Shown here: positions 12,345 through 63,025 of the stretch, one piece after another
How the letters are laid out: each line of letters opens with the position of its first letter
Numbering within the stretch: the stretch's first letter is position 1
NCBI GenBank assembly: GCA_019912845.1
Contig: JAIOHU010000287.1
Coordinates: 8,925-72,924, forward strand
From: a bacterium
GTDB taxonomy: Bacteria; Electryoneota; Electryoneia; Electryoneales; Electryoneaceae
DNA: 64,000 nt
Direction of reading: 5' to 3'
The notes under the pieces: model-generated
The model's database searches: none
Told to the model about the DNA's origin: nothing
The model's input: only the letters and a program-made list of their open reading frames with translations
Made by a program: the position numbers and the translations under genes

Positions 12345-15300
12345 CTATCGCATCAACATTAATTTTCTGGATTCAACAACTCCGCTTGATCCATCGGTCG
12401 GGGTTGTTTTCAAATGGTAGAAATACACACCGGAGGTAAGCTCATTTCCGTATGCATCATCCGCATTCCAGAAAGCCACATGACGCCCTGATGTGAACCA
12501 TCCCTGAGATATTGTAGCTACCTGCTGACCAAGAACATTAAACAGTGTCAGTTCAATGGTGCTTGGTGTGGACAGTTCAAATGGTATTGATGTTGATGGA
12601 TTGAACGGATTCGGGTAATTGACACCTAATGCAGACTGTTCCGGTAACAGTATAGATTCAACAGAACCATCTCCGGAAAATATTGCATAAGTGCCAGTTT
12701 CATTTATTTGAGTATGCACTGTTTGCGATCTGGTATTTACAAAACTTTCCAACTGATGCCAGCTTCCATTATCAGAGAGCTGCCAGATGCTGAGACCACT
12801 AACTTCACGATTTGAGACTGCATCTTCATCATAAGGAAGAATAAGTTCCGCCGAGTTCGTCCAACTCTCAGATTGTCCATGGATTGTCCATTGGACATTC
12901 ATATCAGACTGGGAGGCTATTGTGTATTCTTCCGGGATGCTCAGACAATGCTCCTGCTCAGCCCAGAACATTACTTCTTTGTTTGTCGCATCTGGAGGGA
13001 AAATTAATCTTGAACCATCATCAGCAGCAAGTATACCACCCGCCGTTGGTTTAAGAAGTGCAACTGATATACTGCGACGGTAGCGTACATCACCGGTATT
13101 TGCTGTATTTCCGCTGACTGTCAAAACCAGGAAGTTCGATTCGGTCATCTCCATGGCATACTGATAAACACCATCAGCGTCGAGCATTATAGGTGTCACC
13201 GTCTCAGTCCCTGTATAATCCTCAATTTCAAGCTGGGGGTTTGAGGTAAACGGCTCTGTGGTATTAATAATAAAGTTCAGATAACGAGGGGTAGCTTGAT
13301 TCTCGAATATCGACATACTCACAGGCGACATACCCCAATATTGAGCATCAGGACCGCCATACAAGCCAATATCATTTCGGAAATTTCCCTTAGACGGTGG
13401 GAAACTATAATCATTATTGGGAGCGGAAGGATCACCACCATCAACCAATGGGCTACCATCAACCGGAACAAAATCGACCAGGTCAGTGAACATAGGACCA
13501 ACATCCACTACTGTTGAGTTAAAATCAACATTCGTGTAAGTGTCAGCATCTTCCACATCGCTATATCTACCGATCAAGCGAGATCCTCGGTCAACAAATA
13601 TATCTGTTCCATCATTTGACCAGACAACAGAATTTCGCACGATAGGATTTGAATTACCAGACACGAAAAAGGCTGATCCTTCGTCTGTATCTGCCGAATT
13701 CCCGAAAATAACATCATTGCGAAGAACAGGTGCACTATTGCCAAAGACATGAACTGCACCGCCACGGTTCACAGCATTATTATTAACTATTCTGGTATTC
13801 GATATAAGTGGTTTTGAGAAATATTCAAAGTAGATTCCGCCACCATTGGTAGTTGCATGATTATTCTGGATTGTGGAAGCAAAGATAAATGGAGAACTTC
13901 CCAACAATGATAATCCACCACCTTTTGTGGTTGCTTCATTGTCTTCGATAATGCAGCGAACGAGTGTGGGACGACTTTGATAAATCCACATCCCACCGCC
14001 ATCAGTATGGCTGAAACAGTTCCTAACCGTCACATCAATAAAATTTGGGTTTGTATTGTAAACTGCAATTCCACCACCATGCCCAAATGGACTTAAACCG
14101 AGTGATTCACTTCCTGCTTCCAATTCGGTCGTGCTTGCATATTCGACAATCGCGTGCTCGAGTCTTGTGTTCGGGTTGCTTGCGATAAACCGTAGCCCCC
14201 CAAAGTATGGATGTTGATCTCTGTTTAGTGGGCTGAATGTTACAGGGTTATCTTCTGAGCCGAGAACTTCAAGTTCACCTTCAACATCAAGCGAGTATAA
14301 TGTATCTCCATCATTGCCTTCAAACATCACTTGAACACCCTCACGGATGACAAGTTTTTTTCCGGCTGGAATTGATGTGGGACCAGCGCATATATACACA
14401 TTGTCGTTACCAAGACCCCATGTATCAGGAATAAATGTAGAGGGGATTTCGCCAGAAAAGTAAACACCACCGCTAGTTCCACGTCCCTTCAGATAAATCA
14501 TTACCTCATCGGTATTTGAATAAACGGTCAAGGTGTCACTATATACCCGTAATTCTGATGGGGAGAATGTGATATTCACTGTCAGAGTATCGTCAACACC
14601 AACATTCGCGTTGTTCCCTGACGGCAGGTTGCTGCTGAACGCCCCCGAACTGAATGCAATACTATCGACATGCATCCCTGTATTTCCACCATTTGTAATC
14701 ATGATCGGCAACGAACGTGTCGAATCGAGATTAACAAACTGGAAGTCGATCGTATCCTCTGCTGCGGGCTCTGTTTCCAGAACCGGACCAATAACCACCA
14801 GCCGCATTTGGATAAATTCTGTCCGGTCATTCGTTCTAACCTGGATACTGTCACGAATCATTCCAGTGTCCCTTGGACGACTGTTAAATGAGGATTCACT
14901 TTCGGGCGGATAATGAACTGTCAAAGTCAACTCTTCACCAGGCAGAATGGTACGTGCCGCTTCACCACCATCAGGTTGAGGAACATCGAAGTTCCCGGAA
15001 AATGTGCGCATCCAGGGCTGTGTTAAGGCTACCAGATTTGTATTTCCCAAATTTCGCAATGTGAAATTTCTGCTTGCTGGTTCATCCAAATCTAGAGTAT
15101 CCATATTAATGGAAGTTGTTGAAAGCTGAAGTTGGGGATCAAATGGATAACCGTAGACAACATACTCTATAGCTCCATCAGGAATGTCAAGCAACATATA
15201 GGCCTTGTCCGTGGCAAATTGTCCTGGAGCAACAATATATTTTACCTCAAACTCCTTGGTACTATCCGGTGAAATGGTCATCTCGGGGAATGGGGCAACG

Positions 15301-16544
15301 GTAAATCTGGAGATATCTTCAGGTAAAGTATCTTCATTTTCTGGATCGAGACTGGTCGTTTCCATAGAAACCATTGACCACTGAACAATCAGGTCATTAT
15401 TCCCGACGTTTCGAATACTTGCAAGCCGAACTGCTGTTGAATCTCCTGGACGAATACCTACAAAACGTATATCCGGATTAGCTGCTTGCGCTACTGGAAC
15501 CGAGCGGGTCGCAAACACAGTTCCACCCCAAAATCCCATATTAATACGTCCACCGTTGGGACGTGGTTCATTCTGCCAGCGACTATCGGAATATTCACCA
15601 CCATCTACACCACGTGACGTAAGCTCCAGGTGGAACATTTCCTCGTCTACAAAATCGGGGTCTTCCTGATAAACAAAGTTGTCGACGTTGCTACCAACCT
15701 GTGAATAAATAGAAAATTTTATGAAAGCAGTATAGAAATTGTCCCCGGCAATCAAAACGTCATCACTTGGATTGTTGACTGTCTGGTCACCATTACGCCA
15801 TAGTATTGAATTTCGCACTACAGGATAGGCATTCGGTCCGAAGTAAATACCGCCACCATAAGTTGTATTAGGTGTACGCAAAGTGATTCCGGCGTCATTG
15901 CGGAAAACGGTGAGATTTTTCAGGTCCAACTCAACACGGTCGAGAAACATCCCTCCACCTTGGCGATTTGCCTCGTTGAAAGCGATTAGATTGTTCCTGA
16001 AATGACTGGAAGACAACCAGATATAAACACCACCACCGCTATATTCAGCTTTACAATTTCGAATAATTGAATTTGTCACTCTGGGCGAGGCGCCGTTAAT
16101 GTAAAGACCACCGCCATTATTATCAGCCCAGGTGGAACCTTCAACACGATGTGCATAACCATGTTCTATAATACAATATTCTATAAAGGAACCTGATTCG
16201 CTGTTATCAAAACGGATTCCACGCCAACGATCTTCACCTGTGAACTGGGAAGTATCCTGTGTGAATGTTACCCAATCGATTCCGGCATTGTCGGGCTGAA
16301 CTTCTCCCTGAGCCTGGAAAACACCCTTCACATAAATCGCGTACGGTCCATTGAAGGTTACAGTAACACCCGCATCAATTTCCAGCATTTCTCCCTGGGG
16401 GACTGTTATATCCCCTTCGACGATGATCGGGCTGTCACCAACCGTCCAGCGTCCGGACACATCTCCGCTCACCTGACTGTAAGCAAAGCTTACTGGCAAG
16501 AGCAGTGCGATAGCCAGGGTTAATAACCTGGTAAATCTGGACAT
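12345..16544 (-). CDS. Giant secreted right-handed beta-helix (pectate-lyase/PbH1-like repeat) protein with a T9SS C-terminal sorting domain
   Basis: The signal peptide is MSRFTRLLTLAIALLLPVSFAYSQ. There are two blocks of parallel beta-helix repeats (..NSIIRNCKAEYSGGGVYI.., ..NNLIAFNEANRQGGGMFL.., ..NTRIVNNNAVNRGGAVHV..). The C-terminus is ..NYPNPFNPSTSIPFEL..LTLFNVLGQQV..SGVYFYHL..KLMLMR, the canonical T9SS type-A tail. Confidence 0.7.
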   Translation of the reverse strand: MSRFTRLLTLAIALLLPVSFAYSQVSGDVSGRWTVGDSPIIVEGDITVPQGEMLEIDAGVTVTFNGPYAIYVKGVFQAQGEVQPDNAGIDWVTFTQDTSQFTGEDRWRGIRFDNSESGSFIEYCIIEHGYAHRVEGSTWADNNGGGLYINGASPRVTNSIIRNCKAEYSGGGVYIWLSSSHFRNNLIAFNEANRQGGGMFLDRVELDLKNLTVFRNDAGITLRTPNTTYGGGIYFGPNAYPVVRNSILWRNGDQTVNNPSDDVLIAGDNFYTAFIKFSIYSQVGSNVDNFVYQEDPDFVDEEMFHLELTSRGVDGGEYSDSRWQNEPRPNGGRINMGFWGGTVFATRSVPVAQAANPDIRFVGIRPGDSTAVRLASIRNVGNNDLIVQWSMVSMETTSLDPENEDTLPEDISRFTVAPFPEMTISPDSTKEFEVKYIVAPGQFATDKAYMLLDIPDGAIEYVVYGYPFDPQLQLSTTSINMDTLDLDEPASRNFTLRNLGNTNLVALTQPWMRTFSGNFDVPQPDGGEAARTILPGEELTLTVHYPPESESSFNSRPRDTGMIRDSIQVRTNDRTEFIQMRLVVIGPVLETEPAAEDTIDFQFVNLDSTRSLPIMITNGGNTGMHVDSIAFSSGAFSSNLPSGNNANVGVDDTLTVNITFSPSELRVYSDTLTVYSNTDEVMIYLKGRGTSGGVYFSGEIPSTFIPDTWGLGNDNVYICAGPTSIPAGKKLVIREGVQVMFEGNDGDTLYSLDVEGELEVLGSEDNPVTFSPLNRDQHPYFGGLRFIASNPNTRLEHAIVEYASTTELEAGSESLGLSPFGHGGGIAVYNTNPNFIDVTVRNCFSHTDGGGMWIYQSRPTLVRCIIEDNEATTKGGGLSLLGSSPFIFASTIQNNHATTNGGGIYFEYFSKPLISNTRIVNNNAVNRGGAVHVFGNSAPVLRNDVIFGNSADTDEGSAFFVSGNSNPIVRNSVVWSNDGTDIFVDRGSRLIGRYSDVEDADTYTNVDFNSTVVDVGPMFTDLVDFVPVDGSPLVDGGDPSAPNNDYSFPPSKGNFRNDIGLYGGPDAQYWGMSPVSMSIFENQATPRYLNFIINTTEPFTSNPQLEIEDYTGTETVTPIMLDADGVYQYAMEMTESNFLVLTVSGNTANTGDVRYRRSISVALLKPTAGGILAADDGSRLIFPPDATNKEVMFWAEQEHCLSIPEEYTIASQSDMNVQWTIHGQSESWTNSAELILPYDEDAVSNREVSGLSIWQLSDNGSWHQLESFVNTRSQTVHTQINETGTYAIFSGDGSVESILLPEQSALGVNYPNPFNPSTSIPFELSTPSTIELTLFNVLGQQVATISQGWFTSGRHVAFWNADDAYGNELTSGVYFYHLKTTPTDGSSGVVESRKLMLMR

Positions 16545-16675
16545 CTGACCCACGACGTCACCTCGTATTCTAAAATCTCGTTCCACTGAATCACCCATTC
16601 CAAGACTCCACCAGCTTGTTTATTACAGCAAAATGATAATTGGCTGGCTTCGTATTTTCATAAACCTGCGACCAA

Positions 16676-17707
16676 TTATTTCAATACATATCCCAGGCTG
16701 AAACGATGCCATCCGCCCAGGTATTGGATTGTCGCATAGGTATAATCAACTTTGAGACCAATATTCCGCATGTACAAACCACCACCAAAACTCATCCCGG
16801 AAAATGAGACCATACCCTCTTCATCGAATACAGGGTATTCATAGAATGGGTTGTTATCTTTGTCTTCAACGTACTCTTCGTTCGAACTGCGTTTCCAACC
16901 GTTAATCTTTTTTCCGAAACGAAGCATCGCTGTCTCTTTGAAGGCATATTCAAAGCCGAGATGGACTTCTTCTGAGTTATCGTTGGGGTGTGTACCTTCC
17001 AAGCCCATGGTCAGACGGCTGTCATCTTTTTGCATAAGATCGACCGCTGTAGCAAACTTAAAGTTCTGAGGTAATGGGAAAGGAGTGGTTACATGCTGCA
17101 TATCCGGGCCGAAGTTGGAGATCAACATTGCGATACGCAGGGATTTCCACCCTGTATCGTAAAATGTGCCAACATCAACAGCCCATCCGAGAGCGTTTTC
17201 ATCAGCCAGATTCTCCTGGATATACTTGACTGATCCACCAACGGAGAACTTATCAGTTAACCTTTGGCTGTAACTAATCGCCGCTGCAAAGTCAGTAGCT
17301 CTAAATGTCTGACCATTTCCGTAGGGAAGCTGATAGGTAGTTACTGGCATATCATCTGTATATAGTGCCGTCATAGATGCGCCCACAGCAGCACCGTACA
17401 TCGGAAGTGGCATAACGCCGCCGATGTAGTCGAAGTTTACCCCTAACCCAGATGGAAAGGCCACATGGGTAAAGATCAACTCCTTCTTCTTGATATTCAC
17501 CAGTCCAGCAGGATTGTAGTATAACGCTGATGCGTCATCCGCTATCGCAAGAAACGCATCTGCCATAGCAACCGCACGCGAAGACACCCCAATCTTGAGG
17601 AAATTCACCCCGGTCGTTCCTACCTTGGCCTGACCAAACACCAGACCCGGAATGATCAGCGCAACAGCTAATCCGATTGCAAACCATTGCTTGCGCGTCA
17701 TGTTCAC
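16676..17707 (-). CDS. FadL/PorV-family outer-membrane beta-barrel (candidate T9SS shuttle, PorV-like)
   Basis: A signal peptide is present. The N-terminal block VGTTGVNFLKIGVSSRAVAMADAFLAIADDASALYYNPAGL matches the FadL/PorV hallmark (..ADDAS..NPAGL). The C-terminus is aromatic. It sits directly between two T9SS cargo genes, 8 nt after the upstream one. Confidence 0.5.
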   Translation of the reverse strand: MNMTRKQWFAIGLAVALIIPGLVFGQAKVGTTGVNFLKIGVSSRAVAMADAFLAIADDASALYYNPAGLVNIKKKELIFTHVAFPSGLGVNFDYIGGVMPLPMYGAAVGASMTALYTDDMPVTTYQLPYGNGQTFRATDFAAAISYSQRLTDKFSVGGSVKYIQENLADENALGWAVDVGTFYDTGWKSLRIAMLISNFGPDMQHVTTPFPLPQNFKFATAVDLMQKDDSRLTMGLEGTHPNDNSEEVHLGFEYAFKETAMLRFGKKINGWKRSSNEEYVEDKDNNPFYEYPVFDEEGMVSFSGMSFGGGLYMRNIGLKVDYTYATIQYLGGWHRFSLGYVLK

Positions 17708-17715
17708 ACTCCGCT

Positions 17716-20448
17716 TTATCGAATGATTACGAATTTGCCAACATCAATATGACCTTCATTTCCTGCAGTTCTATCTTCGACACTGAAGAAATACAGCCCT
17801 GAAACCACTTGCTGCTGGTTGCGGCTGTTGAGGTCCCAAACTTCTGCATGATCAGAAACCCAATTCGAAATTCGGTTTCCAGAAATATTATGATCTATTA
17901 AAGTAACAAGGTCACCAGAAACGGTGAAAATTCTGATATAGCATTTTTTAGGCAGATTGTAGAAATACATTCTACGATCTGTCTGTGGGAAATAATTCGG
18001 AGTGCCATCATTCCGGTTTTCCCATGCTACAAATGTTGTATCCACATCATAAATCAATTGCATGTGCTGCTGAGTATAGTCCATATCTGCTCTGTACGGA
18101 TTCGGCACGACACCTGGTTTCTTGCGGTCTGTGCCTGAGGGTGCCAGGTAGAGCATATTTGCGGACTTCGCAGTTTCCAATGGTTCAGTGCCTGAGAAGG
18201 GATCGCCATAGTCGAATGCTGTAACCGTGTAATAGCGCGGTATCATCGGGTTTGTTTCGCCGATATCGAACACATACATGGAATCAACATCAGGGTCTAC
18301 CAAGGATGCAAGCCCTATATTCGGACCTACTGGTCGCAGGAATCCGGTCACACCAAGTGTATTTGTCATTATTTCGGGCAATGTGTCCGGTTGAGTTGTA
18401 GCGATCGGGATAGACATCAATGAATCTCGCTCACTGTAGTAAGCGAAATCGATCCTGTCATATTCGGCAACCAGACTGAATTCTGTTTCCAGACCAGTAT
18501 TTGAGACATAGATGCGATACCCTTCAAAGTCTTGCAAACGACTGAACGGATCCTGATACTCCTCAGATTCTGATGGAAATTTTCCCCACTTCAAATAAAC
18601 ATTTTTTGTGTCAGAGCTGGAAGTTAGAATCGGCACTTCAGGTGGTGGTGGACCACGAAAATCGGGTTCCCCATCGCCCTGATCGAAAAGCTCGTTGTTA
18701 TAGGTATAATCGTATTGAATTGGACGAGGTGCCAAATCCTCTTCCAATTGGAAAACACCATCAAGTTCTCCGGAATCCGGTTCAGTATAAACTGCTGTAA
18801 ACAGTTCATTATTCCAGTTGATCCAGCGTAAGGTGTCACCGATTGAATCAGAATAGATTCCATCAACACCTACATCTTCGCCAAACCAGCCATCGCCATT
18901 GGTGTCAATCATCGGGTTATCATAGACTTTTGCAGCCCAGTCAGCGTTATACTGAAAATCTGAAAAATCAAACAACTCATAATCGATCTGTTCACTGCTG
19001 GGTTGCGGATGCTGACGGTCATGGAAGTTTTCACCAGCGACATAAGCTATTGTCATGGAAAACTTTTCACCCGGATTCAAGCGATAGATTCTATTTCCAC
19101 CTTCATCGATGTGATCAAAAACGCCCAACGGTCCCCAGGATAGCAGATAACGTGTATCAAAGCCATTGGCTAGATCATCGGCATTTCCGGCATCTGGGAT
19201 ACGCCAATCGTGAGCCTCCAAAACTTCGTTGGTGAATCGATTTACGAACTCCTGCGAATTACCACTGATGTACGCTGGATCATTGACACGAATCTGGTCA
19301 TAGTCAAATTCACGGTTTGAAAGCACAAAGTATTTTCTTTCATCGTCCTCGGGCGTGCCCAGTGTACCTGTCCAGTTACCAGGACTGTGATCATCTTCCC
19401 AGGCAGGACCAAAATCATTGTTTGCGTCAGTATTGGAAATCCACCAGTTGAATGATGTACGTAATTTTGGATTTGGAGCACGAACGACACGTGTTCCCGT
19501 AACTCCAGGTCCAGAAAAATCATTTCCTGAATTTACATTTCTTGGACGACCATCATTGTCCGAGATATAGGCTGTATTAATGGTCAGGGTATATTCCTGA
19601 TTGGATCCCTGAGGCTGATATTGATATGAAGTCTTAAAACCGCAAATATCATCCTGTGCACGGTTATTGCCCGATTCTGAAACGTGCCCGACATCCGCAT
19701 CAACGTACAAACCGACGAACAGGTTTTTCAGAAAATTGTTGGCAATATTTTCGATCTCATAATCGATAATGATAAAATCACGTGCATAGTTATATGACCA
19801 GGCATACGATTTTTGAGTAACCTTAATTCCGAGCGGGACATGGGGTCCATCACGCGGTGTGCTCAGCTCAGAACCGAGCGGACTGACTCTATGGGTATCG
19901 GTATAGGATGAAATAAAGTCCTGCTCTGAAACTGCCTCATCGCTGGTGATAAACTCACCAAGGCAATTATATGCATTTTGTCGTGAAGACCTTTCAACAA
20001 TTCCATTGCCAGGTTCATGTCCCGGGAAAAACTCACGTCCGAGATAAGGGTCATTCGCAGATGCCAGCCAACCTTCAACACCTGTCGAAACTCTGGCATA
20101 CTCAAAACCTTCTTCCTGAATAATAGCCCCAATCCACATTGCTCCCATAAAGAGATATTGAATGCCGCTATTAGCAGGGAATTCAGCTTGAGGCGACCAT
20201 TCACCAGTACAAGGGTCTTCCAGGAAACCATCTCTGTCGCTTCCATCATTTCCAAAATAACCATAATTCGTGATGGTCAGCCAGATATTCCCGACATCAT
20301 GTAATCTGTTTTCTGTCTGAATAACATCAATCGTAGGGTTGTATTCCGGTTTCACCGGCCCACGGTCGACAATTTCCTGAAAACGTGCGTATGCAGATGT
20401 TGCAATCAGCAAAGCAAGCAAAAGGAAAATGAAAGTTCTGAATTGCAT
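17716..20448 (-). CDS. Secreted 910-aa protein of unknown function with a T9SS-type C-terminal domain
   Basis: The signal peptide is MQFRTFIFLLLALLIATSAYA. The C-terminus ..IRIFTVSGDLV..WDLNSRNQQQVVSGLYFFSV..GKFVIIR resembles a T9SS sorting domain. No catalytic motif was recognised. Confidence 0.5.
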   Translation of the reverse strand: MQFRTFIFLLLALLIATSAYARFQEIVDRGPVKPEYNPTIDVIQTENRLHDVGNIWLTITNYGYFGNDGSDRDGFLEDPCTGEWSPQAEFPANSGIQYLFMGAMWIGAIIQEEGFEYARVSTGVEGWLASANDPYLGREFFPGHEPGNGIVERSSRQNAYNCLGEFITSDEAVSEQDFISSYTDTHRVSPLGSELSTPRDGPHVPLGIKVTQKSYAWSYNYARDFIIIDYEIENIANNFLKNLFVGLYVDADVGHVSESGNNRAQDDICGFKTSYQYQPQGSNQEYTLTINTAYISDNDGRPRNVNSGNDFSGPGVTGTRVVRAPNPKLRTSFNWWISNTDANNDFGPAWEDDHSPGNWTGTLGTPEDDERKYFVLSNREFDYDQIRVNDPAYISGNSQEFVNRFTNEVLEAHDWRIPDAGNADDLANGFDTRYLLSWGPLGVFDHIDEGGNRIYRLNPGEKFSMTIAYVAGENFHDRQHPQPSSEQIDYELFDFSDFQYNADWAAKVYDNPMIDTNGDGWFGEDVGVDGIYSDSIGDTLRWINWNNELFTAVYTEPDSGELDGVFQLEEDLAPRPIQYDYTYNNELFDQGDGEPDFRGPPPPEVPILTSSSDTKNVYLKWGKFPSESEEYQDPFSRLQDFEGYRIYVSNTGLETEFSLVAEYDRIDFAYYSERDSLMSIPIATTQPDTLPEIMTNTLGVTGFLRPVGPNIGLASLVDPDVDSMYVFDIGETNPMIPRYYTVTAFDYGDPFSGTEPLETAKSANMLYLAPSGTDRKKPGVVPNPYRADMDYTQQHMQLIYDVDTTFVAWENRNDGTPNYFPQTDRRMYFYNLPKKCYIRIFTVSGDLVTLIDHNISGNRISNWVSDHAEVWDLNSRNQQQVVSGLYFFSVEDRTAGNEGHIDVGKFVIIR

Positions 20449-20554
20449 AATTTATATCCCAAAAGCAACCGAATTAGCCAAACCTATAGTGTTGTACCCA
20501 ACTATTACCCGGGACAACGATATTTTACCAGTCGAACTGTGCTACATTTGCCGT

Positions 20555-22561
20555 TTATTGCCAGGCTTCTGGTCCGCCATACGCACCCATATCATTGCGG
20601 GTGCCATCTGGATCGTTAAACTCTGAATCCGGATTACCTGCATTTTTTCCGGGACTTCCTGCCTGCAGACGGAAATTGCCATTTTCAGCATCTACAAACC
20701 TGGGTTCTTCAAGCAGATTTATCGTATCGTCCCAGTCAAACCCACGGATGAAATTACCAGTCTCTGCCCGGCTGGAATAAACCGTACTGTACAGCAATGT
20801 GGGGCGAGCCGACACTTGCGCATCTACACCATACGAAAATTCATTGAAAATACAATTGGAAATTGTCGGTTTCGATGAATTGCTTACGCGAACCGCATGA
20901 CTGTTTGGACCATATATCGTAAAGTTGTTGATTACCGGGTTGGACAGTTCTTTAATAACCAGACCGCTTACATGTGCATTATAGATTAACACATTGTTCA
21001 TCACCGGATTACTGTTCAGCTCAAGCTGAACACCATAACCATCGATATTCGATATTATCGCACGAGTAACATCAGGGCTGGAGTTCAAATGACAATACAT
21101 TCCAATTACGCCAGCTGATTCAATCGTAAGGTCTTCAATAGTGGGACGAGCGCCATCAACAAGATACAGACCAACATTGTAAGAATTTCTGATTGTTACA
21201 TTTTTCAACTCAGGTGAACAACCATTCAAGCTTAATGCACCAAGAAAATGAGGAGCCGCGATATCGTCCGTAGAACCATGCTCGATGATAACATTGTGCA
21301 ATCTTGAATTATTGCTCGCACCATCAAGAAGGATCTGTTTCCAATCAGCACGTTTTGGGTTTTCCCTGCCGCTGGTAAACACGATAGGACGATTCTCCGT
21401 ACCCTCTGCGATGATTGTGCCGTAAACATTAAAAGTAAAACGTTCAATAAACCGAATTGTTACACCCGGATCGATAATCAGTGTATCACCTTCCTGCACC
21501 TCAACATCACAGGTTACATTATAAAACTCAAAATCATTCCGCAGATGAAGACGGCTTCCAACAAGAGTATGCGTCAGTTCATTCTCAGCCTGGAAATGCG
21601 GTAATGCGCCAACATCCGCTACTGTACCATCAGGATCAGCAGGGTCGTTCGGATCACCTTTGTCGATCGCTCCACTACACGGATGCAAACGATAATCCCC
21701 TGCTTCCACATCATAAAACTCTGGATTAAGGGAAACATCATTTTCCACATTTTCCAGCAAACCAAGCGGGAGATAATCCAAGGAGACGTTATTCCAGATA
21801 TCGTTATAGGCAATGGTCGCGGTCAGATTACTCGATCTGGCTCTAATACCAGAGTCATCGTTTTCTACCACGATGTTGTTGGTAATTGTCGCATTACCAT
21901 ACATACCTGCCAGGTTCGGTTCAATACGAATACCGTTGAATGAATTATTGGTGATGGTGTTATAGCTTATAACTGGATCAGATTCACCAATGATGTTGAT
22001 ACCATCATATCCCGCATTGTCGATAATGCAGCGGGTTATTGTAGGTGAACAGTCCAGGATTGTAATTGCACCACGATGCAGAATCGTGTCTATATAGGCG
22101 ATATTGTTCTCGTCATACGCACGTGTGGTGTCTTGAATTAAATTATACTTTGAAGCATAAGTAACCTGCACGTATTCCAGAATCGAGGTGTCATCTGCAT
22201 CCAGAAGCCAGATTCCACGCCAATCTCCTCTTCCCTTCGGATTCAGGTTGGAAGTGAAATGGATAAAGTTATCCTCGGTTCCTCTAGCAACCAGCTCGCC
22301 TTTGACCTCAAATGGGAAGAAGCCATTCGCATAGATTTCTACACCTGCATCTATGATCAGTGATTCTCCTTCGGGGACAAGAACCGCGTCGGTCATCACA
22401 TAAGGGCTGTTACCCGCAGAAAGCACACCGGAAACATTTCCATGCAATGATGTTTTATCACCACCACTCGACACCGGATCATCTTCGGTATCACAACCGA
22501 TGAAACCAATAGCTATGGTCAGGATGATGGATATCTGTATGAGCCTGTTCAACAACTTCAT
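20555..22561 (-). CDS. Beta-helix (PbH1-repeat) lipoprotein, a possible polysaccharide lyase or surface glycan-binding protein
   Basis: The lipoprotein signal is MKLLNRLIQISIILTIAIGFIGC followed by DTEDDP. There are two runs of parallel beta-helix repeats (..TITNNIVVENDDSGIRARSS..IAYNDIWNN..; ..NVLIYNAHVSGLVIKELSNPVINNFTIYG..). It ends in ..GAYGGPEAWQ with no T9SS tail, the same GxYGGP motif that follows the beta-helix in the 1417-aa protein. Confidence 0.6.
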   Translation of the reverse strand: MKLLNRLIQISIILTIAIGFIGCDTEDDPVSSGGDKTSLHGNVSGVLSAGNSPYVMTDAVLVPEGESLIIDAGVEIYANGFFPFEVKGELVARGTEDNFIHFTSNLNPKGRGDWRGIWLLDADDTSILEYVQVTYASKYNLIQDTTRAYDENNIAYIDTILHRGAITILDCSPTITRCIIDNAGYDGINIIGESDPVISYNTITNNSFNGIRIEPNLAGMYGNATITNNIVVENDDSGIRARSSNLTATIAYNDIWNNVSLDYLPLGLLENVENDVSLNPEFYDVEAGDYRLHPCSGAIDKGDPNDPADPDGTVADVGALPHFQAENELTHTLVGSRLHLRNDFEFYNVTCDVEVQEGDTLIIDPGVTIRFIERFTFNVYGTIIAEGTENRPIVFTSGRENPKRADWKQILLDGASNNSRLHNVIIEHGSTDDIAAPHFLGALSLNGCSPELKNVTIRNSYNVGLYLVDGARPTIEDLTIESAGVIGMYCHLNSSPDVTRAIISNIDGYGVQLELNSNPVMNNVLIYNAHVSGLVIKELSNPVINNFTIYGPNSHAVRVSNSSKPTISNCIFNEFSYGVDAQVSARPTLLYSTVYSSRAETGNFIRGFDWDDTINLLEEPRFVDAENGNFRLQAGSPGKNAGNPDSEFNDPDGTRNDMGAYGGPEAWQ

Positions 22562-22579: not shown

Positions 22580-25500
22580 CTAGAATTCAAAGCCGATTTT
22601 AAGCAGGATCTGACGACCCGGGCTGTAATTACGTGGATTTGCATCATAAGCAAAACGATCAATAAATGGATTATAGTCTGGATTCAATGGATGGACTGCG
22701 TAAATAGGACTACCAGTCTCAGCGTAAACACTACGCCAGTTTCTCTTATCCCAGACATTTCGAACCTCGACACCAAGAATCGCTTTCAAGGATCCAATAT
22801 CGAAGTACTTTTCGAGTTTAACATCAGTAGTTTCAGTCCAGGGCATACGCTCTGAATTCTCGAGAATCAGGTTTGGATTGATCCCTGTTGTGTATTCAGA
22901 TGGAGTATATGGCCGTCCAGAACCAAACTGCCACTGCATGGTCAACAACCAGTAATCCGGCAGACGGAAACCGAATAAGTATGGATGCTCACCCTTCTGG
23001 TACATCATCGCCCAGTTGAAGGTGACACGATGGGTTTCATCCCAGTCCAATGGATGCTCATCAAAGTTAACCGGAACATTCAATGAACGTCTCTCAAATT
23101 CAGCGTTCGCTGAAGAAGCTTTTCCAAAAGCGTAGGAAAAGTCATAGTTCAACGACATCTGGTAATGATTGTTGAAATTTTTATCCAGCTTCATTTCCAG
23201 TCCACGAGCACGACCATAATCAAGGTTTACGTAACGATAAATTGTAATCGGACCCACTTTTTCCGCAACAGTCGAGATCAGGTTATACATATCACGGTAA
23301 TAACCTGCGATCTGGAACGATACATCATCAGTAACCTGGGTATGAACACCTAGTTCGTAGGTAACGGTCTTTTCAAAGTCAAGATTTGGATTTCCTACAG
23401 TACCCTGATCAAGATTTGTGGTAGTTGATTTATAATAGTAGATGAAAGATGGAGTCTGGTAAAAGTGACCGTAGTTGAAATACATCTTAGAACGTTCAGT
23501 GATCGGGTGACTGATACCGAGACGAGGTGCGAATTGGAAATTACCTTTTTCCGCCAGTTTCGCCGCGGGTTCACCCGCTTCAAAACGTCGACGTTGTTCA
23601 TCAACTACAGCCTGGTCATGGACAACGAAGTCAGTACGCAGACCAGCCTGAACGATCAATCCCTCGAATTCCATCTTATCCTGGACATAAACTGCACCCT
23701 GCCAGGGTTTGTACTCCCAGAAATCTCGAACATCACCACGGTCTGAATAGGGTTGTTCATTGCCCACAGACGCTTCACCAGTGTAAGGCTGATCCGGGCT
23801 CTGGATTTCTTCCTGCGACATAATCCGGTACTTAAGTTCGGTACCAGCTTTTAATTCATGGAATGTATGTACCTGGCTCTGCCACGAGAACTTGAAAGTA
23901 TACTCTTCGGTGCGACGGCGTGACCAGATAGCCGCATTGTCCCAACGCCCCGGATTCAGGAAGTAGTCGATGTTGTTCCAACGGTTGTTGCCGTTATAAT
24001 CGACGTAATTCTCTTCACCTTCATCATACTGGAAATTCGGCACATTAAAACGCGGGTTATTTTCATCGTGAACTGTTCGGTTTGACCAGGTACTGTGCAG
24101 TTGATCGTAAGCAAGATAATCACTGTAAACCCATTCACTGCCATGATTACCTGTCTCCCACCATCTATCTTCCCACGTATACAATACTGGAAGACGTTGT
24201 GTCGATCCTTCATTGACTACAGGGTTGAATTGAGTAAACAGCTCATATTCATCAAAAATACCGTTTGGTGGGTCATATTTACCATTCAGAGTCGGGGTTA
24301 CAGTAAGTTCGTAACCCAACTGATCACCAAACTCATTTATAAGGCTGGTGCCATCTGATGAGGGCAGATCATAGAAAGGTTCGCCTGGATCCCAGCGACC
24401 ATTGTATTCGCCGGTTAACGGATCACGTAAATCAATGAACGGCTCACCTGTATCATTATAAATATCACCATCATAAAACGGTTCGGGTTGATCTTCCTGA
24501 GTATTGTCGACCAAGTCTTGACGATCCAACTGTCCATTGCTGTTGGCATCATCATACCCCTCACCATCGTCCTGCCTGCCATTACCATTCAAATCTTTGA
24601 AGGGTTCACCTGGATCCCAGGTGAAGTTTCCGTTCAAATCGGTAAATGGTTCGGTACGATCGAAAACACCATTTCCATTGGCATCCTGGTAACGTTCACC
24701 ATCCCATCTGCCATTGCCGTTCATATCCTGTTCGGCAAGCTGTGGTTCAGCGGGGTTCCAGACACCATCGCCATTCAAGTCTATATAAGGGTCCCAAGGG
24801 TCAAACACGCCGATATTGTTTACACCGGTTACCGGGTCGGCACGGTCTGTCCAGGGCTCAGCGAAATCGTAAACACCATTGCCGTTGAGATCGATCCAGT
24901 CTTCACCACGATCCCACTGACCATTCATGTTCAGATCTTCGTATCCTTCGTTCTCGCCTTCATAAGCCTGGTTTCCATCGTGGTCAAAATATCCGTCGAG
25001 GAAGTTGTTACCATCATTATCGAAACCGAGTTCATCAAATGTTTCACTATGTACAACACCGTCGCCATCTGCATCCTGATCCCAGCGACCGTTATTGTTC
25101 TGATCAATACCAGTAGCGATATTTTCTTCAATCTCATCAACCAGCGTAAATTCGCCCGGATTTTTTCCACGAGGTGAAAGGCTTGCGGTAAGCACCTGAC
25201 GTCCCACAGAGAAGTTCATTACACTTCTGGAGGAGAGCTGATTGGTAAAGTCTATATTAAAGGAGGTTCTGCGATCTTCTGCCTGGGGGCGATGTTCAAG
25301 GTTGTAGAGATATTGCCAGCCATAATTGCCACTGACAAATCCGGCACCATTCGGGTAAACATCGAACACACGTGCTCGTTCCATCATGTAGATTGATACT
25401 TTTTTACCACTACCGAGATCGTATGCCAGCTTCATACTTCCCGACCAGTCGTTGTACTGGCGACGAGGAACATCAAATCCTAGACCAGCATAGTCCTGGC

Positions 25501-26419
25501 TGCCATAATCGAGACCGAGGGGAGTATAGGTGTCGCTGAGTTTCACATTTCCAGTTACATAAAAGGTAATCGGACGATTGAAAAGCATCCCGGTGACAGG
25601 AACAGGGCCACCATAAGCAATATCAACACGATCTTCGTTGAACGAAAAATCATCGAAGACATCATCACTGAAGATATCGGTTGACCAGGCGATTGAACCA
25701 CTATAACCATCAACAGCACCTTCTGGTGTCGTGATGTTGACAATACCCGCAGTCGCATTTCCATATTCCGCAGCCATACCGCCTGTAAGAATCTGGATTT
25801 CCTGGACATTCACCGCAGCAAGGTTGACAGGAAGCACTTCACCAGTAATCGGGTCACGACTATCGATACCATCCACAATAAAACGTGATTCAGTGTCACG
25901 TCCACCACGGATATGAATCTTACCCTCATCGTCGATCTTGAAACCCGGCTCAGCAACAAGAGCTGCTGTAACATCATCGGTGGGCTTCATTGCCAGATCT
26001 TCACCGGAGATTTTGACCTCTTTTGAGGTGACACCGAGGTTTACTTCTGGAGCCTCATAAACCAGGGTAACTTCCCCAAGCTCCAGGGTCTGCTCTTGAA
26101 GTTTAAACTCCAGTTCTGTCGTTTCATCAGAACGGATTTCTACTCCGGTGTATGTAGCTGTGGCAAATCCCAAAGCACTGGCTTTTACAGTATATTCTCC
26201 CGGGGTAACAGCGACAATAAAGAAAACACCGTCCAGGTCTGTCGAAGCACCTTTCGAAGTTCCCTCAATTGTAACATTAGCACCGATAACCGCTTCGCCA
26301 GTTTCAGAGTCTGTCACAATACCTTTGATCTTTCCAGACGACTGAGCAAACGCTGTGGAACCCAGCGAAAGAATGAGCAGTACGAGTAAAACTGAAGACA
26401 ATATTCGAAAAGAACGCAT
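22580..26419 (-). CDS. TonB-dependent outer-membrane receptor (SusC/RagA-like architecture) with a large acidic tandem-repeat insertion
   Basis: The signal peptide is followed by a carboxypeptidase-regulatory-like domain (IKGIVTDSETGEAVIGANVTIEG..DLDGVFFI). The plug domain carries ..IHIRGGRDTE.. and the barrel ends in the terminal motif ..LLKIGFEF. A strong GGAGG ribosome-binding site lies 7 nt upstream. Residues ~438-685 are DxNGNG/WDPGEPF repeats. Confidence 0.7.
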   Translation of the reverse strand: MRSFRILSSVLLVLLILSLGSTAFAQSSGKIKGIVTDSETGEAVIGANVTIEGTSKGASTDLDGVFFIVAVTPGEYTVKASALGFATATYTGVEIRSDETTELEFKLQEQTLELGEVTLVYEAPEVNLGVTSKEVKISGEDLAMKPTDDVTAALVAEPGFKIDDEGKIHIRGGRDTESRFIVDGIDSRDPITGEVLPVNLAAVNVQEIQILTGGMAAEYGNATAGIVNITTPEGAVDGYSGSIAWSTDIFSDDVFDDFSFNEDRVDIAYGGPVPVTGMLFNRPITFYVTGNVKLSDTYTPLGLDYGSQDYAGLGFDVPRRQYNDWSGSMKLAYDLGSGKKVSIYMMERARVFDVYPNGAGFVSGNYGWQYLYNLEHRPQAEDRRTSFNIDFTNQLSSRSVMNFSVGRQVLTASLSPRGKNPGEFTLVDEIEENIATGIDQNNNGRWDQDADGDGVVHSETFDELGFDNDGNNFLDGYFDHDGNQAYEGENEGYEDLNMNGQWDRGEDWIDLNGNGVYDFAEPWTDRADPVTGVNNIGVFDPWDPYIDLNGDGVWNPAEPQLAEQDMNGNGRWDGERYQDANGNGVFDRTEPFTDLNGNFTWDPGEPFKDLNGNGRQDDGEGYDDANSNGQLDRQDLVDNTQEDQPEPFYDGDIYNDTGEPFIDLRDPLTGEYNGRWDPGEPFYDLPSSDGTSLINEFGDQLGYELTVTPTLNGKYDPPNGIFDEYELFTQFNPVVNEGSTQRLPVLYTWEDRWWETGNHGSEWVYSDYLAYDQLHSTWSNRTVHDENNPRFNVPNFQYDEGEENYVDYNGNNRWNNIDYFLNPGRWDNAAIWSRRRTEEYTFKFSWQSQVHTFHELKAGTELKYRIMSQEEIQSPDQPYTGEASVGNEQPYSDRGDVRDFWEYKPWQGAVYVQDKMEFEGLIVQAGLRTDFVVHDQAVVDEQRRRFEAGEPAAKLAEKGNFQFAPRLGISHPITERSKMYFNYGHFYQTPSFIYYYKSTTTNLDQGTVGNPNLDFEKTVTYELGVHTQVTDDVSFQIAGYYRDMYNLISTVAEKVGPITIYRYVNLDYGRARGLEMKLDKNFNNHYQMSLNYDFSYAFGKASSANAEFERRSLNVPVNFDEHPLDWDETHRVTFNWAMMYQKGEHPYLFGFRLPDYWLLTMQWQFGSGRPYTPSEYTTGINPNLILENSERMPWTETTDVKLEKYFDIGSLKAILGVEVRNVWDKRNWRSVYAETGSPIYAVHPLNPDYNPFIDRFAYDANPRNYSPGRQILLKIGFEF
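24365..25110 (-). repeat. In-frame tandem repeats encoding calcium-binding-like D-x-N-G-N-G / WDxGEPFxD units inside the TonB-dependent receptor
   Basis: Translated examples include ..IDLNGNGVYDFAEPWTD.., ..IDLNGDGVWNPAEPQ.., ..DMNGNGRWDGERYQD.., ..DANGNGVFDRTEPFTD.., ..DLNGNFTWDPGEPFKD.., ..DLNGNGRQDDGEGYDD.., ..ANSNGQLDRQD.. and ..YNGRWDPGEPFYD... The periodic Asp/Asn/Gly pattern resembles thrombospondin-type-3 / EF-like calcium sites. Confidence 0.55.
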
Positions 26420-26624: not shown

Positions 26625-26668
26625 ATCTATGTAAAAAACAGGCTGCCTGAAACTTGCCAGGCAGCCTG
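26625..26668 (-). terminator. Rho-independent terminator of icd
   Basis: The stem CAGGCTGCCTG (26639-26649) pairs with CAGGCAGCCTG (26658-26668) around an 8-nt loop. It lies 12 nt past the icd stop. On the minus strand it is followed by TGTTTTTTACAT. Confidence 0.6.
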
Positions 26669-26679
26669 ACTGTAATCAA

Positions 26680-27999
26680 CTACATGTTTTCTATAATTGC
26701 GGAAGCGTATTCAGAGGTCTTCAATTTGGTTGCGCCTTCCATCTGGCGATGAAGATCATAAGTAACACGTTTCTGGTCAATTGTTTTCTCAAGAGCGGAA
26801 TAGATTTTCGCAGTTACTTCATCCCAACCCATATATTCAAACATCATCGCGCCGGAAAGCACGAGTGATCCTGGGTTGATAACATCTTTATCCGCATATT
26901 TTGGAGCGGTACCGTGTGTCGCTTCAAAGAGACCGATATAATCACCAATATTCGCACCCGGTGCCATTCCGAGTCCACCGACCATTGCCGCACCAGCATC
27001 GGAGATGTAATCACCGTTCAGGTTTGGCGTTACAACTACTGAATACTCTGAAGGTCGGGTTTGAATCTGCTGGAACATACTATCGGCGATACGATCCTTT
27101 ACGACGATTCTGCCATTGGGATCGCCCGCAGGTTTGCCACCGCGCAAATCAGCAAATGCACCTGGTTTGGAAATGGGCGTAACGCCATCTTCGGCGACTG
27201 TTTCATCCCACAACTCAGCCTCGGTGATAACATGGTCACGATACTCTTCAACGGCAGTTTCATATCCCCACGTCTTGAAAGCACCTTCGGTAAACTTCAT
27301 GATATTACCTTTGTGCATGAAGGTTACACTCGGCAGACCTTTATCGATCGCCCACTGAATCGCTTTACGAGTTAATTGTTTTGTCGCGGTCGGGCTGATC
27401 GGTTTTATCCCGATACCGGAATCGTCGCGAATCTGAGTTTTCCCATAATCTTCTTTGAGAATTTTGATAAGCCTTGCCGCTTCAGTTGATCCGCTTTCAA
27501 ATTCAACACCAGAATACACATCTTCGGTATTCTCACGGAAAATGATCATATCCATTTCTTGGGCACGAAGTGACGGGCTGGGGACACCCTCAAAGAATCG
27601 AACCGGACGTACACATGCGTACAGGTTTAATACCTGGCGCAGGGTTACATTCAAGCTACGGAATCCACCGCCCACAGGAGTGGTTAGTGGTCCTTTAATA
27701 GCCACAAAATATTCACGGATGGCGTCGAAAGTCTCTTCAGGCATCCATGTATTCCCACCATATACATCGAGAGCTTTTTCACCGGCGTATACTTCCATCC
27801 AGTGAATTTTGCGTGCTCCACCGTAAGCTTTCTCAACTGCAGCGTCAAAGATACGCTGCGACGCTTTCCAGATGTCGCGCCCTGTGCCATCACCTTCGAT
27901 GAAAGGGATGATCGGGTTATCGGGAATTGAGAGCTTCCCATCTTGCACTGTGATCTGCTGGCCTTCCGCCGGCACGACAATCTTGTCAAACTCAGCCAT
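26680..27999 (-). CDS. icd: NADP-dependent isocitrate dehydrogenase (homodimeric prokaryotic type)
   Basis: The N-terminus [25 protein letters not shown] and the motifs ..[22 protein letters not shown].. and ..[27 protein letters not shown].. are hallmark blocks of the E. coli-type enzyme. The length of 439 aa is appropriate. Confidence 0.9.
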
Positions 28000-61957: not shown

Positions 61958-63025
61958 TCAACCCCCTACAGCTTTCATATTTGAATTTGTCTGCATACTC
62001 TGCGGTATCGTTTTCATCGACATATAGTCAACAAATTCCTGGTGAACAACTTCACTCTCTTTACTCTCCAACGAGGTAAGTAGTGGATAGGTAAACTCAT
62101 CCATCAGACAACGACGTACATTCCCCATAGCTTCGAGACGAATCCTGATGCAGGTTGAGCAAAAGGGATGCGATAACGGGGTAATAAATCCTAAATTTAA
62201 GGGTTTACCATTCCAGTTTACTTTTATTTTTCTCGCTGGTGAAACGGGATTCAACTCCTCTTCGCATAATTCACCATTCGCCAACAACCATTCTTTGATA
62301 ATCCCAGCAGAAATAAATTCACGTTCGATCCACTCATCAGTTGTTCCGGTTCTCATCAGTTCAATAAGGCGCAGCTCGAAATCATTCTCCTGAGCATATT
62401 TAATAAGTAATGGCAATTCATCCAGCCAGGTGGATTTGAAAATAACGGTATTCAACTTCAGAGGGGTAAGACCATTTCGCACCGCAGCGTCAATACCCTC
62501 CAGTGTCGCCTGCAGGTTGCCACCATGTGTTAAATCACGGAATCGACCGGGATTCAAAGAGTCCAATGAAACATTCACGCGAGAGAGACCAGCGCTCTTC
62601 ACAACTGTTGCGTATCGCAACAGTAGAGAACCATTGGTGGTCATGGATAGTTCTGGTGAGGAGGGAAGTTTGGCAAGTTTACGGATAAATGTATCCAACC
62701 CACGTCTGACGAGTGGTTCACCACCTGTGAGTTTAATTTTTGTTATAGGGTAGAGTTCTGTCAGCCATTTAACAACCGTAAAAAGCTGGTCTAAAGAGGG
62801 GAGTTTATTCCGCCCTACTTTGTGATGTAACTCGTCTGGCAAACAATACTTACAGCGAAAGTTACACCTGTCGGTGACTGAAACACGCAGGGTTGTCGGT
62901 TGTTCAAACAGAGCGGGTGAATGAACTTCTCGAATGTGGTTATCCGGGCTCGTATAACGTATCACATTCATCTCCTTTCCAAACACGGGAGGCTGCGCAG
63001 TTTCCCACGTAACCCTCGGAGCCAT
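61958..63025 (-). CDS. moaA: GTP 3',8-cyclase MoaA (radical SAM)
   Basis: The radical-SAM motif is ..LRVSVTDRCNFRCKYCLP.. (CxxxCxxC). ..KLTGGEPLVRRGL.. and a C-terminal Cys cluster ..CSTCIRIR.. are present. It abuts moaC with a 1-nt gap. Confidence 0.85.
   Translation of the reverse strand: MAPRVTWETAQPPVFGKEMNVIRYTSPDNHIREVHSPALFEQPTTLRVSVTDRCNFRCKYCLPDELHHKVGRNKLPSLDQLFTVVKWLTELYPITKIKLTGGEPLVRRGLDTFIRKLAKLPSSPELSMTTNGSLLLRYATVVKSAGLSRVNVSLDSLNPGRFRDLTHGGNLQATLEGIDAAVRNGLTPLKLNTVIFKSTWLDELPLLIKYAQENDFELRLIELMRTGTTDEWIEREFISAGIIKEWLLANGELCEEELNPVSPARKIKVNWNGKPLNLGFITPLSHPFCSTCIRIRLEAMGNVRRCLMDEFTYPLLTSLESKESEVVHQEFVDYMSMKTIPQSMQTNSNMKAVGG

What the first reader, a model, noticed from the sequence alone, without database searches (positions are those of the whole stretch)
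24365..25110. TonB-dependent receptor carrying a ~250-aa insertion of tandem calcium-binding-like DxNGNG / WDPGEPF repeats
Between the plug and barrel regions, about 12 tandem ~20-aa units follow the pattern [DN]-L-N-G-N-G-x-[WY]-D-x-[GT]-E-P-[FW]-x-D. These are dense Asp/Asn/Gly loops of the type seen in thrombospondin type-3 and RTX-like calcium sites. The insertion pushes the protein to 1279 aa, far beyond typical receptors of this class. The repeats are visible at nucleotide level and produce a spurious 229-aa antisense ORF (24488-25177). This may be a calcium-dependent extracellular capture domain on the transporter, or a phase- or length-variable segment.
Basis: seen in the sequence. Interest (0 to 1): 0.5.

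Follow-up and report, generated by a model that had tools for sequence, protein, structure and literature searches.

The report
Outer-membrane transporter with calcium-loop insert
A nutrient-uptake channel of an uncultured sediment or water bacterium carries a large, strongly conserved surface loop built from about a dozen calcium-binding-type mini-loops, a repeat type common in uncultured bacteria that no protein-family or structure database tested here describes.

Summary
Window 22580-26419 (-) encodes a 1279-aa TonB-dependent transporter. Residues 437-686 hold about 12 Asp/Asn/Gly loops. The core period is 15 aa, not 20: D-x-N-G-N-G-x-[WYF]-D-x-x-E-P-[FW]-x, a 12-residue EF-hand-type loop without helices.

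The insert is about 415 aa (416-830). It lies inside the barrel, between strands 7 and 8 (extracellular loop 4), not between plug and barrel.

At DNA level the repeat is barely detectable: no TRF array, units 52% identical, longest exact repeat 13 nt. Loops are conserved position by position in more than 70 species-level genomes of Electryoneota/Calditrichota-like FCB lineages. The array is the best-conserved part of the protein. Phase or length variation is therefore not supported. The antisense ORF is a by-product of composition.

The array matches no Pfam or NCBIfam model (TSP3, RTX and EF-hand included) and no PDB entry. The same 15-aa unit occurs in many other large, mostly unannotated proteins.

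Best reading: a calcium-stabilised surface cap on a transporter that belongs to a conserved operon (beta-helix lipoprotein, 910-aa unknown protein, PorV-like barrel). Calcium binding is inferred, not shown.

The parts
22580..26419 (-). Gene for the 1279-aa TonB-dependent transporter. It has a signal peptide (aa 1-25, AFA|Q) and a C-terminal Phe.
   Evidence: ORF. Pfam and NCBIfam. AF2 model with pLDDT 82.4. Foldseek against PDB transporters, TM (target) about 0.77.
26096..26329 (-). N-terminal CarboxypepD_reg domain (aa 31-108)
   Evidence: PF13620, 69.3 bits
25745..26014 (-). Plug domain (aa 136-225)
   Evidence: PF07715, 31.6 bits against a cut-off of 23.9
25175..25702 (-). Barrel strands beta1-beta7 (aa 240-415), upstream of the insert
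   Evidence: DSSP of AF2 model m72880ab90107: strands at model residues 120-295, where model residue + 120 gives the protein residue
23930..25174 (-). Whole insert in extracellular loop 4 (aa 416-830), between beta7 and beta8
   Evidence: Gap in relatives of 840-1070 aa. Strand count and hairpin parity. Same position in 19 of 19 transporter clusters that carry the array.
24362..25111 (-). Array of about 12 EF-hand-type loops (aa 437-686). The most regular 15-aa run is aa 495-638.
   Evidence: Motif positions. Lag-15 autocorrelation z = 6.2. Position frequencies. Conservation. pLDDT 39-77.
23945..24487 (-). C-terminal sub-domain of the insert (aa about 645-825). It is modelled with confidence, has almost no regular secondary structure, and holds degenerate copies of the unit (for example DYNGNNRWNNID).
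22583..23929 (-). Barrel strands beta8-beta22 (aa 831-1279)
   Evidence: PF00593 over aa 757-1159. DSSP.
24488..25177 (+). 229-aa antisense ORF. It is a by-product, not a gene.
   Evidence: It is codon-aligned with the sense frame. No TTA, CTA or TCA sense codon lies between aa 415 and 664.
20555..22561 (-). Downstream partner gene: a 668-aa right-handed beta-helix lipoprotein (lipobox FIGC, acidic stretch after the Cys, DUF5123)
   Evidence: Pfam. Found directly downstream of the transporter gene in 67 of 82 related loci, including L001-L003.
17716..20448 (-). Conserved 910-aa protein with no family assignment
   Evidence: No Pfam, NCBIfam or PDB hit. Syntenic in 57 loci.
16676..17707 (-). 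PorV/PorQ-family outer-membrane barrel (343 aa)
   Evidence: NF033709, 189 bits against a cut-off of 90. Syntenic in L001-L003. It directly follows the transporter gene in the short-variant loci.

Best explanation
The gene encodes a 22-strand TonB-dependent outer-membrane transporter. Its extracellular loop 4 has been expanded into a surface domain of about 415 aa.

The first 250 aa of that domain are about 12 helix-less EF-hand-type loops, D1-x-N3-G-N5-G6-x-aromatic8-D9-x-x-E12-P-aromatic-x. I infer that each loop chelates one Ca2+ outside the cell. The chain would then fold around a string of calcium ions into a rigid, acidic, aromatic-studded cap, much as thrombospondin type-3 repeats fold around a calcium core. 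Here aromatic residues would take the place of disulfides. The last 180 aa or so form a compact, coil-rich sub-domain.

The cap sits above the barrel mouth. It most likely serves as a fixed structural element for ligand capture, or as a docking platform for the surface proteins encoded in the same conserved operon: a beta-helix lipoprotein, a 910-aa unknown protein and a PorV-like barrel.

Shown: transporter identity, position of the insert, the repeat pattern, its deep conservation, the lack of DNA-level repeats, and the operon synteny.

Inferred: calcium binding, the fold, the cap or docking role, and the substrate.
For: Transporter identity:
- Pfam Plug and barrel hits above their cut-offs.
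- AF2 model with mean pLDDT 82.4 and 22 strands.
- Foldseek matches to PqqU, PhuR, FhuA and BtuB at E of 1e-24 to 1e-30.

Loop 4 placement:
- The insert separates strands 7 and 8.
- All tight 2-5-residue hairpins join an even strand to the next odd strand, which marks periplasmic turns. Counting from either terminus gives the same result.
- The array lies between the same two barrel halves in all 19 array-bearing transporter clusters.

Calcium-loop pattern:
- 550 units from 56 orthologues were picked by D-x-[DN]-x-[DN]-G alone. At positions not used for picking they show 86% hydrophobic or aromatic at position 8, 92% D/N at position 9 and 62% E/D at position 12.
- These are the EF-hand / Dx[DN]xDG ligand positions (PMC3123361).

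Constraint:
- The array is 75/62/60% identical in close, middle and far orthologues, against 70/41/45% for the plug.
- The loops are conserved in register.

A fold that may depend on an ion:
- The model shows almost no regular secondary structure, with pLDDT 39-77 in the array, and the prediction included no ions.

Precedent: the extracellular loops of BtuB bind two Ca2+ ions, which order loop 2 and raise B12 affinity about 1000-fold (PMC7360065).

Partners:
- The order transporter, beta-helix lipoprotein, 910-aa protein is kept in 57-67 of 82 loci.
- A PorV-like gene is adjacent in the short-variant lineages.
Against: - No calcium binding was measured or modelled.
- AF2 confidence in the array is low, so a wire-like fold is only one possibility.
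- Position 12 is E/D in just 62% of units.
- Positions 3 and 5 are mostly Asn rather than Asp.
- Only one loop passes the strict PROSITE EF-hand pattern.
- No family model (EF-hand, TSP_3, bacterial TSP3, RTX) matches. No PDB sequence or fold matches.
- The docking role rests on gene order only.
- The substrate is unknown.
Confidence: 0.55

Rival explanations
1. The acidic array is itself the ligand-capture device. It would bind metal cations (Ca2+, Fe, lanthanides or other) or polyanionic polymers bridged by Ca2+, such as pectate- or alginate-like chains, and hand them to the barrel. It would not be a merely structural cap.
For: The density of D/N/E ligands and exposed aromatics. The downstream partner is a pectate-lyase-like right-handed beta-helix with DUF5123. 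Asp at position 9 in 85% of loops.
Against: The same 15-aa unit occurs in about 130 of the best 149 unrelated carrier proteins, among them PD40, Big_1, PKD/PA14, cadherin-like and pilin-like proteins. That fits a generic structural module better than a ligand-specific site. No metal-regulation signal or riboswitch lies upstream. Published genomes of the phylum are reported to be poor in polysaccharide-degrading enzymes (PMC9324843).
Confidence: 0.2
2. The array is an intrinsically disordered acidic spacer or brush. It would repel particles or phages or tune surface charge, without ordered ion sites.
For: Low pLDDT and no secondary structure in the array. Composition is 43% D+G+N.
Against: Disordered spacers drift in sequence and length. 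Here individual loops and their aromatic positions are conserved in register down to 43% overall identity, and the array is the best-conserved region.
Confidence: 0.12
3. The array is a phase- or length-variable surface segment, that is, a contingency locus or an antigenic-variation device.
For: It is a tandem protein repeat on a surface loop. Distant orthologues differ by one to three units: aa 594-623 is absent from the far group, and loop counts range from 7 to 14.
Against: TRF finds no array. Units are 52% identical at DNA level. The longest exact repeat is 13 nt and lies 690 nt from its partner. Copy number is stable within groups of 60-70% identity. No same-species sequences were available for comparison.
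Confidence: 0.03

Closest known systems
TonB-dependent transporters with a CarboxypepD_reg N-terminal domain (Oar-like / SusC-like receptors of the FCB group)
   Same: Signal peptide, CarboxypepD_reg domain, plug, 22-strand barrel and C-terminal aromatic residue. One homologue is annotated 'Protein oar'.
   Different: Relatives of 840-1070 aa lack the loop-4 insert and have 0-1 loops. The score is far below the SusC/RagA cut-off (80.9 against 368 bits). No SusD-like neighbour is present.
Thrombospondin type-3 repeats (PF02412) and bacterial TSP3 repeats (PF18884)
   Same: Tandem D-x-D/N-x-D/N-G-x-x-D-x-x-D/E loops of about 13-23 aa with no regular secondary structure. In thrombospondin these wrap a calcium core (own knowledge; PDB 1ux6 is cited for its Dx[DN]xDG sites in PMC3123361).
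   Different: No Pfam match even at E <= 10. There is no cysteine or disulfide. Asn dominates positions 3 and 5. An aromatic sits at position 8 and P-[FW] at 13-14. No PDB thrombospondin or COMP chain is hit by the profile.
EF-hand / Dx[DN]xDG calcium-loop class (Rigden et al. 2011, PMC3123361), including SdrD B-domain loops
   Same: Twelve-residue loop with ligands at positions 1, 3, 5, 9 and 12 and Gly at 6. The insert profile cross-hits SdrD_B proteins through their loops.
   Different: No flanking helices, no paired hands and no beta-sandwich scaffold. Only one loop passes PROSITE PS00018. No EF-hand Pfam hit reaches threshold.
BtuB calcium-ordered extracellular loops
   Same: A TonB-dependent transporter whose surface loops need Ca2+ to take the ligand-competent shape (PMC7360065).
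   Different: BtuB has two Ca2+ sites in an Asp cage formed by normal-length loops. Here a 415-aa inserted domain carries about 12 putative sites.
RTX nonapeptide beta-roll (PF00353)
   Same: A Gly/Asp-rich extracellular tandem repeat presumed to fold on Ca2+ binding outside the cell.
   Different: No GGxGxDxUx motif, period 15 rather than 9, no Pfam hit, and no beta strands predicted.

Membership tests
TonB-dependent transporter | Plug domain inside the barrel | tested here: met
   PF07715 at aa 136-225, 31.6 bits against a cut-off of 23.9
TonB-dependent transporter | 22-strand beta-barrel | tested here: met
   PF00593, 79.9 bits. The AF2 DSSP shows 22 strands. Foldseek gives TM (target) 0.77 to PqqU, Cir and YncD.
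TonB-dependent transporter | TonB box upstream of the plug | tested here: inconclusive
   A candidate motif, E-V-T-L-V-Y at about aa 115-120, was seen in the sequence. No model or experiment tested it.
TonB-dependent transporter | Energy-dependent uptake through TonB-ExbBD | not testable with these tools
   Needs genetics or transport assays.
SusC/RagA | TIGR04056 above cut-off and an adjacent SusD-like lipoprotein | tested here: not met
   80.9 bits against a cut-off of 368.25, N-terminal part only. The downstream lipoprotein is a beta-helix, not SusD.
Thrombospondin type-3 repeat (PF02412 / PF18884) | Match to the family model | tested here: not met
   No Pfam family at E <= 10 on the insert or on regular arrays of the same unit.
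Thrombospondin type-3 repeat (PF02412 / PF18884) | Conserved cysteines forming inter-repeat disulfides (eukaryotic TSP3) | tested here: not met
   The protein contains no Cys.
Thrombospondin type-3 repeat (PF02412 / PF18884) | DxDxDGxxDxxD-type loop in tandem, without secondary structure | tested here: met
   Met in an Asn-substituted form. There are 10 D-x-[DN]-x-[DN]-G loops, 8 of them with positions 9 and 12 filled. DSSP shows coil.
RTX / HemolysinCabind | GGxGxDxUx nonapeptide repeats | tested here: not met
   No regex hit. Period 15. No PF00353 hit.
Canonical EF-hand | Helix-loop-helix with a PS00018 loop, usually paired | tested here: not met
   One strict PS00018 hit (aa 624) and 6 relaxed hits. 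No helices in the array. No EF-hand Pfam hit.
Dx[DN]xDG calcium-binding linear motif class | Motif with downstream acidic ligands | tested here: met
   Pattern and unbiased positions 8, 9 and 12. The class is defined in PMC3123361.
Dx[DN]xDG calcium-binding linear motif class | Actual Ca2+ coordination | not testable with these tools
   The structure tools carry no ions, and the model coordinates cannot be reached.
Contingency (phase- or length-variable) locus | Near-identical tandem DNA repeats that allow slippage or recombination | tested here: not met
   TRF finds none. Units are 52% nt identical. The longest exact repeat is 13 nt.

The most novel reading that the evidence does not exclude
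The 15-residue unit D-x-N-G-N-G-x-W-D-x-x-E-P-F-x defines a large repeat family that none of the protein-family or structure resources searched here describes. It would be a helix-less, cysteine-less calcium wire. In these transporters it would form a loop-4 cap that is the key functional element of a surface complex not yet described: a TonB-dependent barrel, a beta-helix lipoprotein and a PorV-like barrel, linked to type IX secretion and conserved across several uncultured FCB phyla.
Probability: 0.25. Interest if true: 0.65.

Novelty: new variant of a known kind. Interest (0 to 1): 0.45.

Why it matters
Extracellular loops of TonB-dependent transporters are usually their most variable parts. 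Here a 415-aa loop insert is the most conserved part, which points to an essential surface function.

The insert is built from a repeat that no family database or solved structure covers. Yet the repeat profile matches more than 1500 protein clusters (50% identity) in uncultured bacteria and archaea. Some of those matches are generic EF-hand-type loops in annotated SdrD B-domain proteins, so the unannotated 15-aa family is smaller than that count.

Defining the repeat would annotate many 'hypothetical' surface proteins. That means its Ca2+ stoichiometry, its fold and its role in the transporter / lipoprotein / PorV-like operon. It could also show a new way of building rigid extracellular domains without disulfides.

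It would further give a first handle on a core outer-membrane complex of the Electryoneota/Calditrichota-type lineages.

Tried and rejected
- TRF on the DNA found no array.
- Pfam and NCBIfam on the insert and on regular arrays found nothing.
- PDB sequence searches with the insert, its profile and two regular arrays gave only chance hits with E >= 0.68.
- The afdb50 fold library was not available.
- An exact 32-mer search of metagenome contigs for same-species strains returned nothing. Strain-level copy number therefore could not be compared.
- An Rfam scan found no riboswitch upstream of the gene.
- Literature searches for such an insert in TonB-dependent receptors returned only coincidental co-mentions.
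- The thrombospondin structure paper PMC381422 is not held.
- PDB searches for the 668-aa and 910-aa neighbours found nothing.
- Rejected readings: RTX beta-roll, canonical EF-hand, FG-GAP propeller (period and lack of strands), a contingency locus, and a real antisense gene.

Full report
**What is there.** Window 22580..26419 (-) is a 1279-aa ORF.
- Pfam finds CarboxypepD_reg (aa 31-108), Plug (136-225) and the TonB-dependent receptor barrel (757-1159), all above their cut-offs.
- NCBIfam gives only a sub-threshold SusC/RagA match, 80.9 against 368 bits.
- An AlphaFold2 model of aa 121-1279, built on 83 aligned sequences, has mean pLDDT 82.4 and 22 strands.
- Foldseek aligns it to solved transporters (PqqU, PhuR, FhuA, Cir, YncD, BtuB) at E of 1e-24 to 1e-30, with TM about 0.77 on the target.
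- The protein starts with a signal peptide and ends in Phe. It is a TonB-dependent transporter.

**The repeat.** The finding's coordinates correspond to aa 437-686.
- Twelve [DN]-x-[DN]-x-[DNS]-[GNF] anchors lie at aa 439-624. Degenerate EPF half-units follow them.
- BLOSUM autocorrelation of the segment peaks at lag 15 with z = 6.2 against composition shuffles. Weaker peaks fall at 30 and 45, and none at 20.
- The unit is D1-x-N3-G-N5-G6-x-[WYF]8-D9-x-x-E12-P-[FW]-x. This is a complete 12-residue EF-hand-type loop plus three linker residues.
- I picked 550 units from 56 orthologues by D-x-[DN]-x-[DN]-G alone. The positions not used for picking are hydrophobic or aromatic at 8 (86%), D/N at 9 (92%) and E/D at 12 (62%). 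The commonest spacing is 15 aa.
- That is the ligand pattern of the Dx[DN]xDG class, which binds calcium 'in near-identical fashion' in at least twelve structural contexts (PMC3123361).
- Only one loop passes strict PROSITE PS00018, and six pass when an aromatic is allowed at position 8. There is no RTX nonapeptide, and the protein has no cysteine.

**DNA level.**
- TRF reports nothing.
- The 45-nt autocorrelation has z = 3.2 against codon shuffles. Units share 52% nt identity on average and 67% at most.
- The repeat families found are 60-84% identical short stretches that mirror the peptide motif.
- The longest exact direct repeat is 13 nt, against 9-11 nt in other parts of the gene.
- The 229-aa antisense ORF (24488..25177) is the codon-aligned antisense frame. 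It stays open because no TTA, CTA or TCA sense codon occurs between aa 415 and 664, in a Leu/Ser-poor stretch. It is a by-product.

**Where the insert sits.**
- In the model, strands beta1-beta7 occupy aa 240-415 and beta8-beta22 occupy aa 831-1279.
- All 2-5-residue hairpins join an even strand to the next odd strand, which marks periplasmic turns.
- The 415-aa segment between beta7 and beta8 is therefore extracellular loop 4.
- Relatives of 840-1070 aa are gapped over about aa 420-840 and hold 0-1 loops.
- The insert is thus about 415 aa, lies inside the barrel, and is not 'between plug and barrel'. Pfam's barrel model simply fails to reach the first seven strands.

**Fold of the insert.**
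- The array has pLDDT 39-77 and almost no regular secondary structure.
- The C-terminal 180 aa of the insert reach pLDDT 86-95, also mostly coil.
- Sequence and profile searches of PDB find nothing either.
- The models contain no ions. Low confidence is what one would expect of a fold that needs calcium, but it is not evidence for such a fold.

**Conservation.**
- Fifty-six full-length homologues (43-69% identity, 1216-1330 aa) carry the insert.
- A scan of one genome per species found 72 genomes with the full insert. Their labels include Calditrichaeota, Ca. Electryonea, Ca. Hatepunaea, KSB1, LCP-89, Delongbacteria and Zixibacteria. Shorter array-only variants occur in Zixibacteria and Ignavibacteriales receptors.
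- The closest named relatives belong to the candidate phylum Electryoneota of the FCB superphylum (PMC9324843).
- Loops are conserved in register, for example EGYEDLNxNGxWDRGEDWxDLNGNGxYDxAEPW. Two units (aa 594-623) are missing from the more distant group.
- The array is the best-conserved region: 75/62/60% identity in close, middle and far orthologues. The plug gives 70/41/45% and the first barrel strands 56/41/38%.
- Together with the DNA data, this rules out a contingency or antigenic-variation segment as far as it can be tested. No same-species sequence was found for a direct comparison.

**The unit elsewhere.**
- A profile of the insert matches 1518 clusters (at 50% identity) with E <= 1e-3.
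- Of the best 149, only 19 are transporters. In all 19 the array lies between the same two barrel halves.
- The other 130 are varied large proteins, with PD40, Big_1, PKD/PA14 or cadherin-like domains. One is a prepilin-like protein in a Planctomycetota genome, L077.
- In these proteins loop spacing is mostly 15 aa (278 cases). A second class at 22 aa (107 cases) corresponds to known SdrD B-domain proteins hit through their calcium loops.
- Regular 15-aa arrays get no Pfam hit even at E <= 10. They get no PDB hit, and sources name them only 'hypothetical'.
- The unit is therefore a widespread module that none of these resources annotates.

**Context.**
- Downstream on the same strand lie four genes: a 668-aa beta-helix lipoprotein with DUF5123, a 910-aa protein without any family, a PorV/PorQ-family barrel (189 bits against a cut-off of 90), and a 1417-aa beta-helix protein with a type IX secretion sorting domain.
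- The order is kept in homologous loci down to 44% identity. In 57-67 of 82 loci it holds as far as the available flanks reach.
- In the short-variant lineages the PorV-like gene follows the transporter gene directly.
- No riboswitch lies upstream.

**Interpretation.**
- The most likely reading (0.55) is a calcium-stabilised surface cap on loop 4 that serves ligand capture or partner docking in this conserved operon.
- Calcium-ordered loops have a precedent in BtuB (PMC7360065).
- The rivals are direct ligand or metal capture by the array (0.2), a disordered acidic brush (0.12) and a variable segment (0.03).

**Novelty.** This is a new variant of a known kind: a TonB-dependent transporter with an unprecedentedly large and conserved loop insert, made of a repeat not yet described in the resources searched.

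Noticed in passing
window 62956-63089 (-): Molybdenum/tungsten cofactor (Moco) riboswitch, RF01055, 71.6 bits against a gathering score of 36.
   Followed up: no
window 12345-22561 (-); L001-L003: A conserved operon lies downstream of the transporter gene. It encodes a beta-helix lipoprotein (668 aa), a 910-aa protein with no family or PDB relative, a PorV/PorQ-family barrel (343 aa), and a 1417-aa beta-helix protein with a type IX secretion C-terminal sorting domain. The order is kept down to 44% identity.
   Followed up: partly
L073, L075, L076, L078, L080-L082 (about 8100-8200 in each): In Zixibacteria and Ignavibacteriales, a PorV-like gene directly follows the shorter array-bearing Oar-like receptor gene. 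The transporter and the PorV-like barrel may therefore be the core pair.
   Followed up: partly
L077:2918-7210 (+), Planctomycetota MAG JAHEIK010000170.1: A 1431-aa protein with a prepilin-type N-terminus (GFSLLEVIIAG) carries the same EPFxDxNGNGxWDxxE units and has no Pfam family.
   Followed up: partly
P0124, P0125, P0139, P0170 and others: Long regular arrays of the same 15-aa unit occur in proteins of up to 4813 aa. P0125, for example, has more than 20 loop motifs, mostly 15 aa apart. They have no Pfam, PDB or source annotation. This is a candidate new repeat family.
   Followed up: partly
window 26680-27999 (-): An isocitrate dehydrogenase gene lies immediately upstream of the transporter gene here and in 40 of 82 related loci across lineages. 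This is unusually stable synteny for an outer-membrane receptor. A hairpin followed by a T-run lies after its stop codon, at about 26634-26670.
   Followed up: no
window 24506-24937 (-), aa 495-638: Each unit holds two Asn-Gly dipeptides. From general knowledge, Asn-Gly is the sequence most prone to deamidation. Yet Asn is kept over Asp at positions 3 and 5 in 86% and 83% of units. The reason is unexplained.
   Followed up: no
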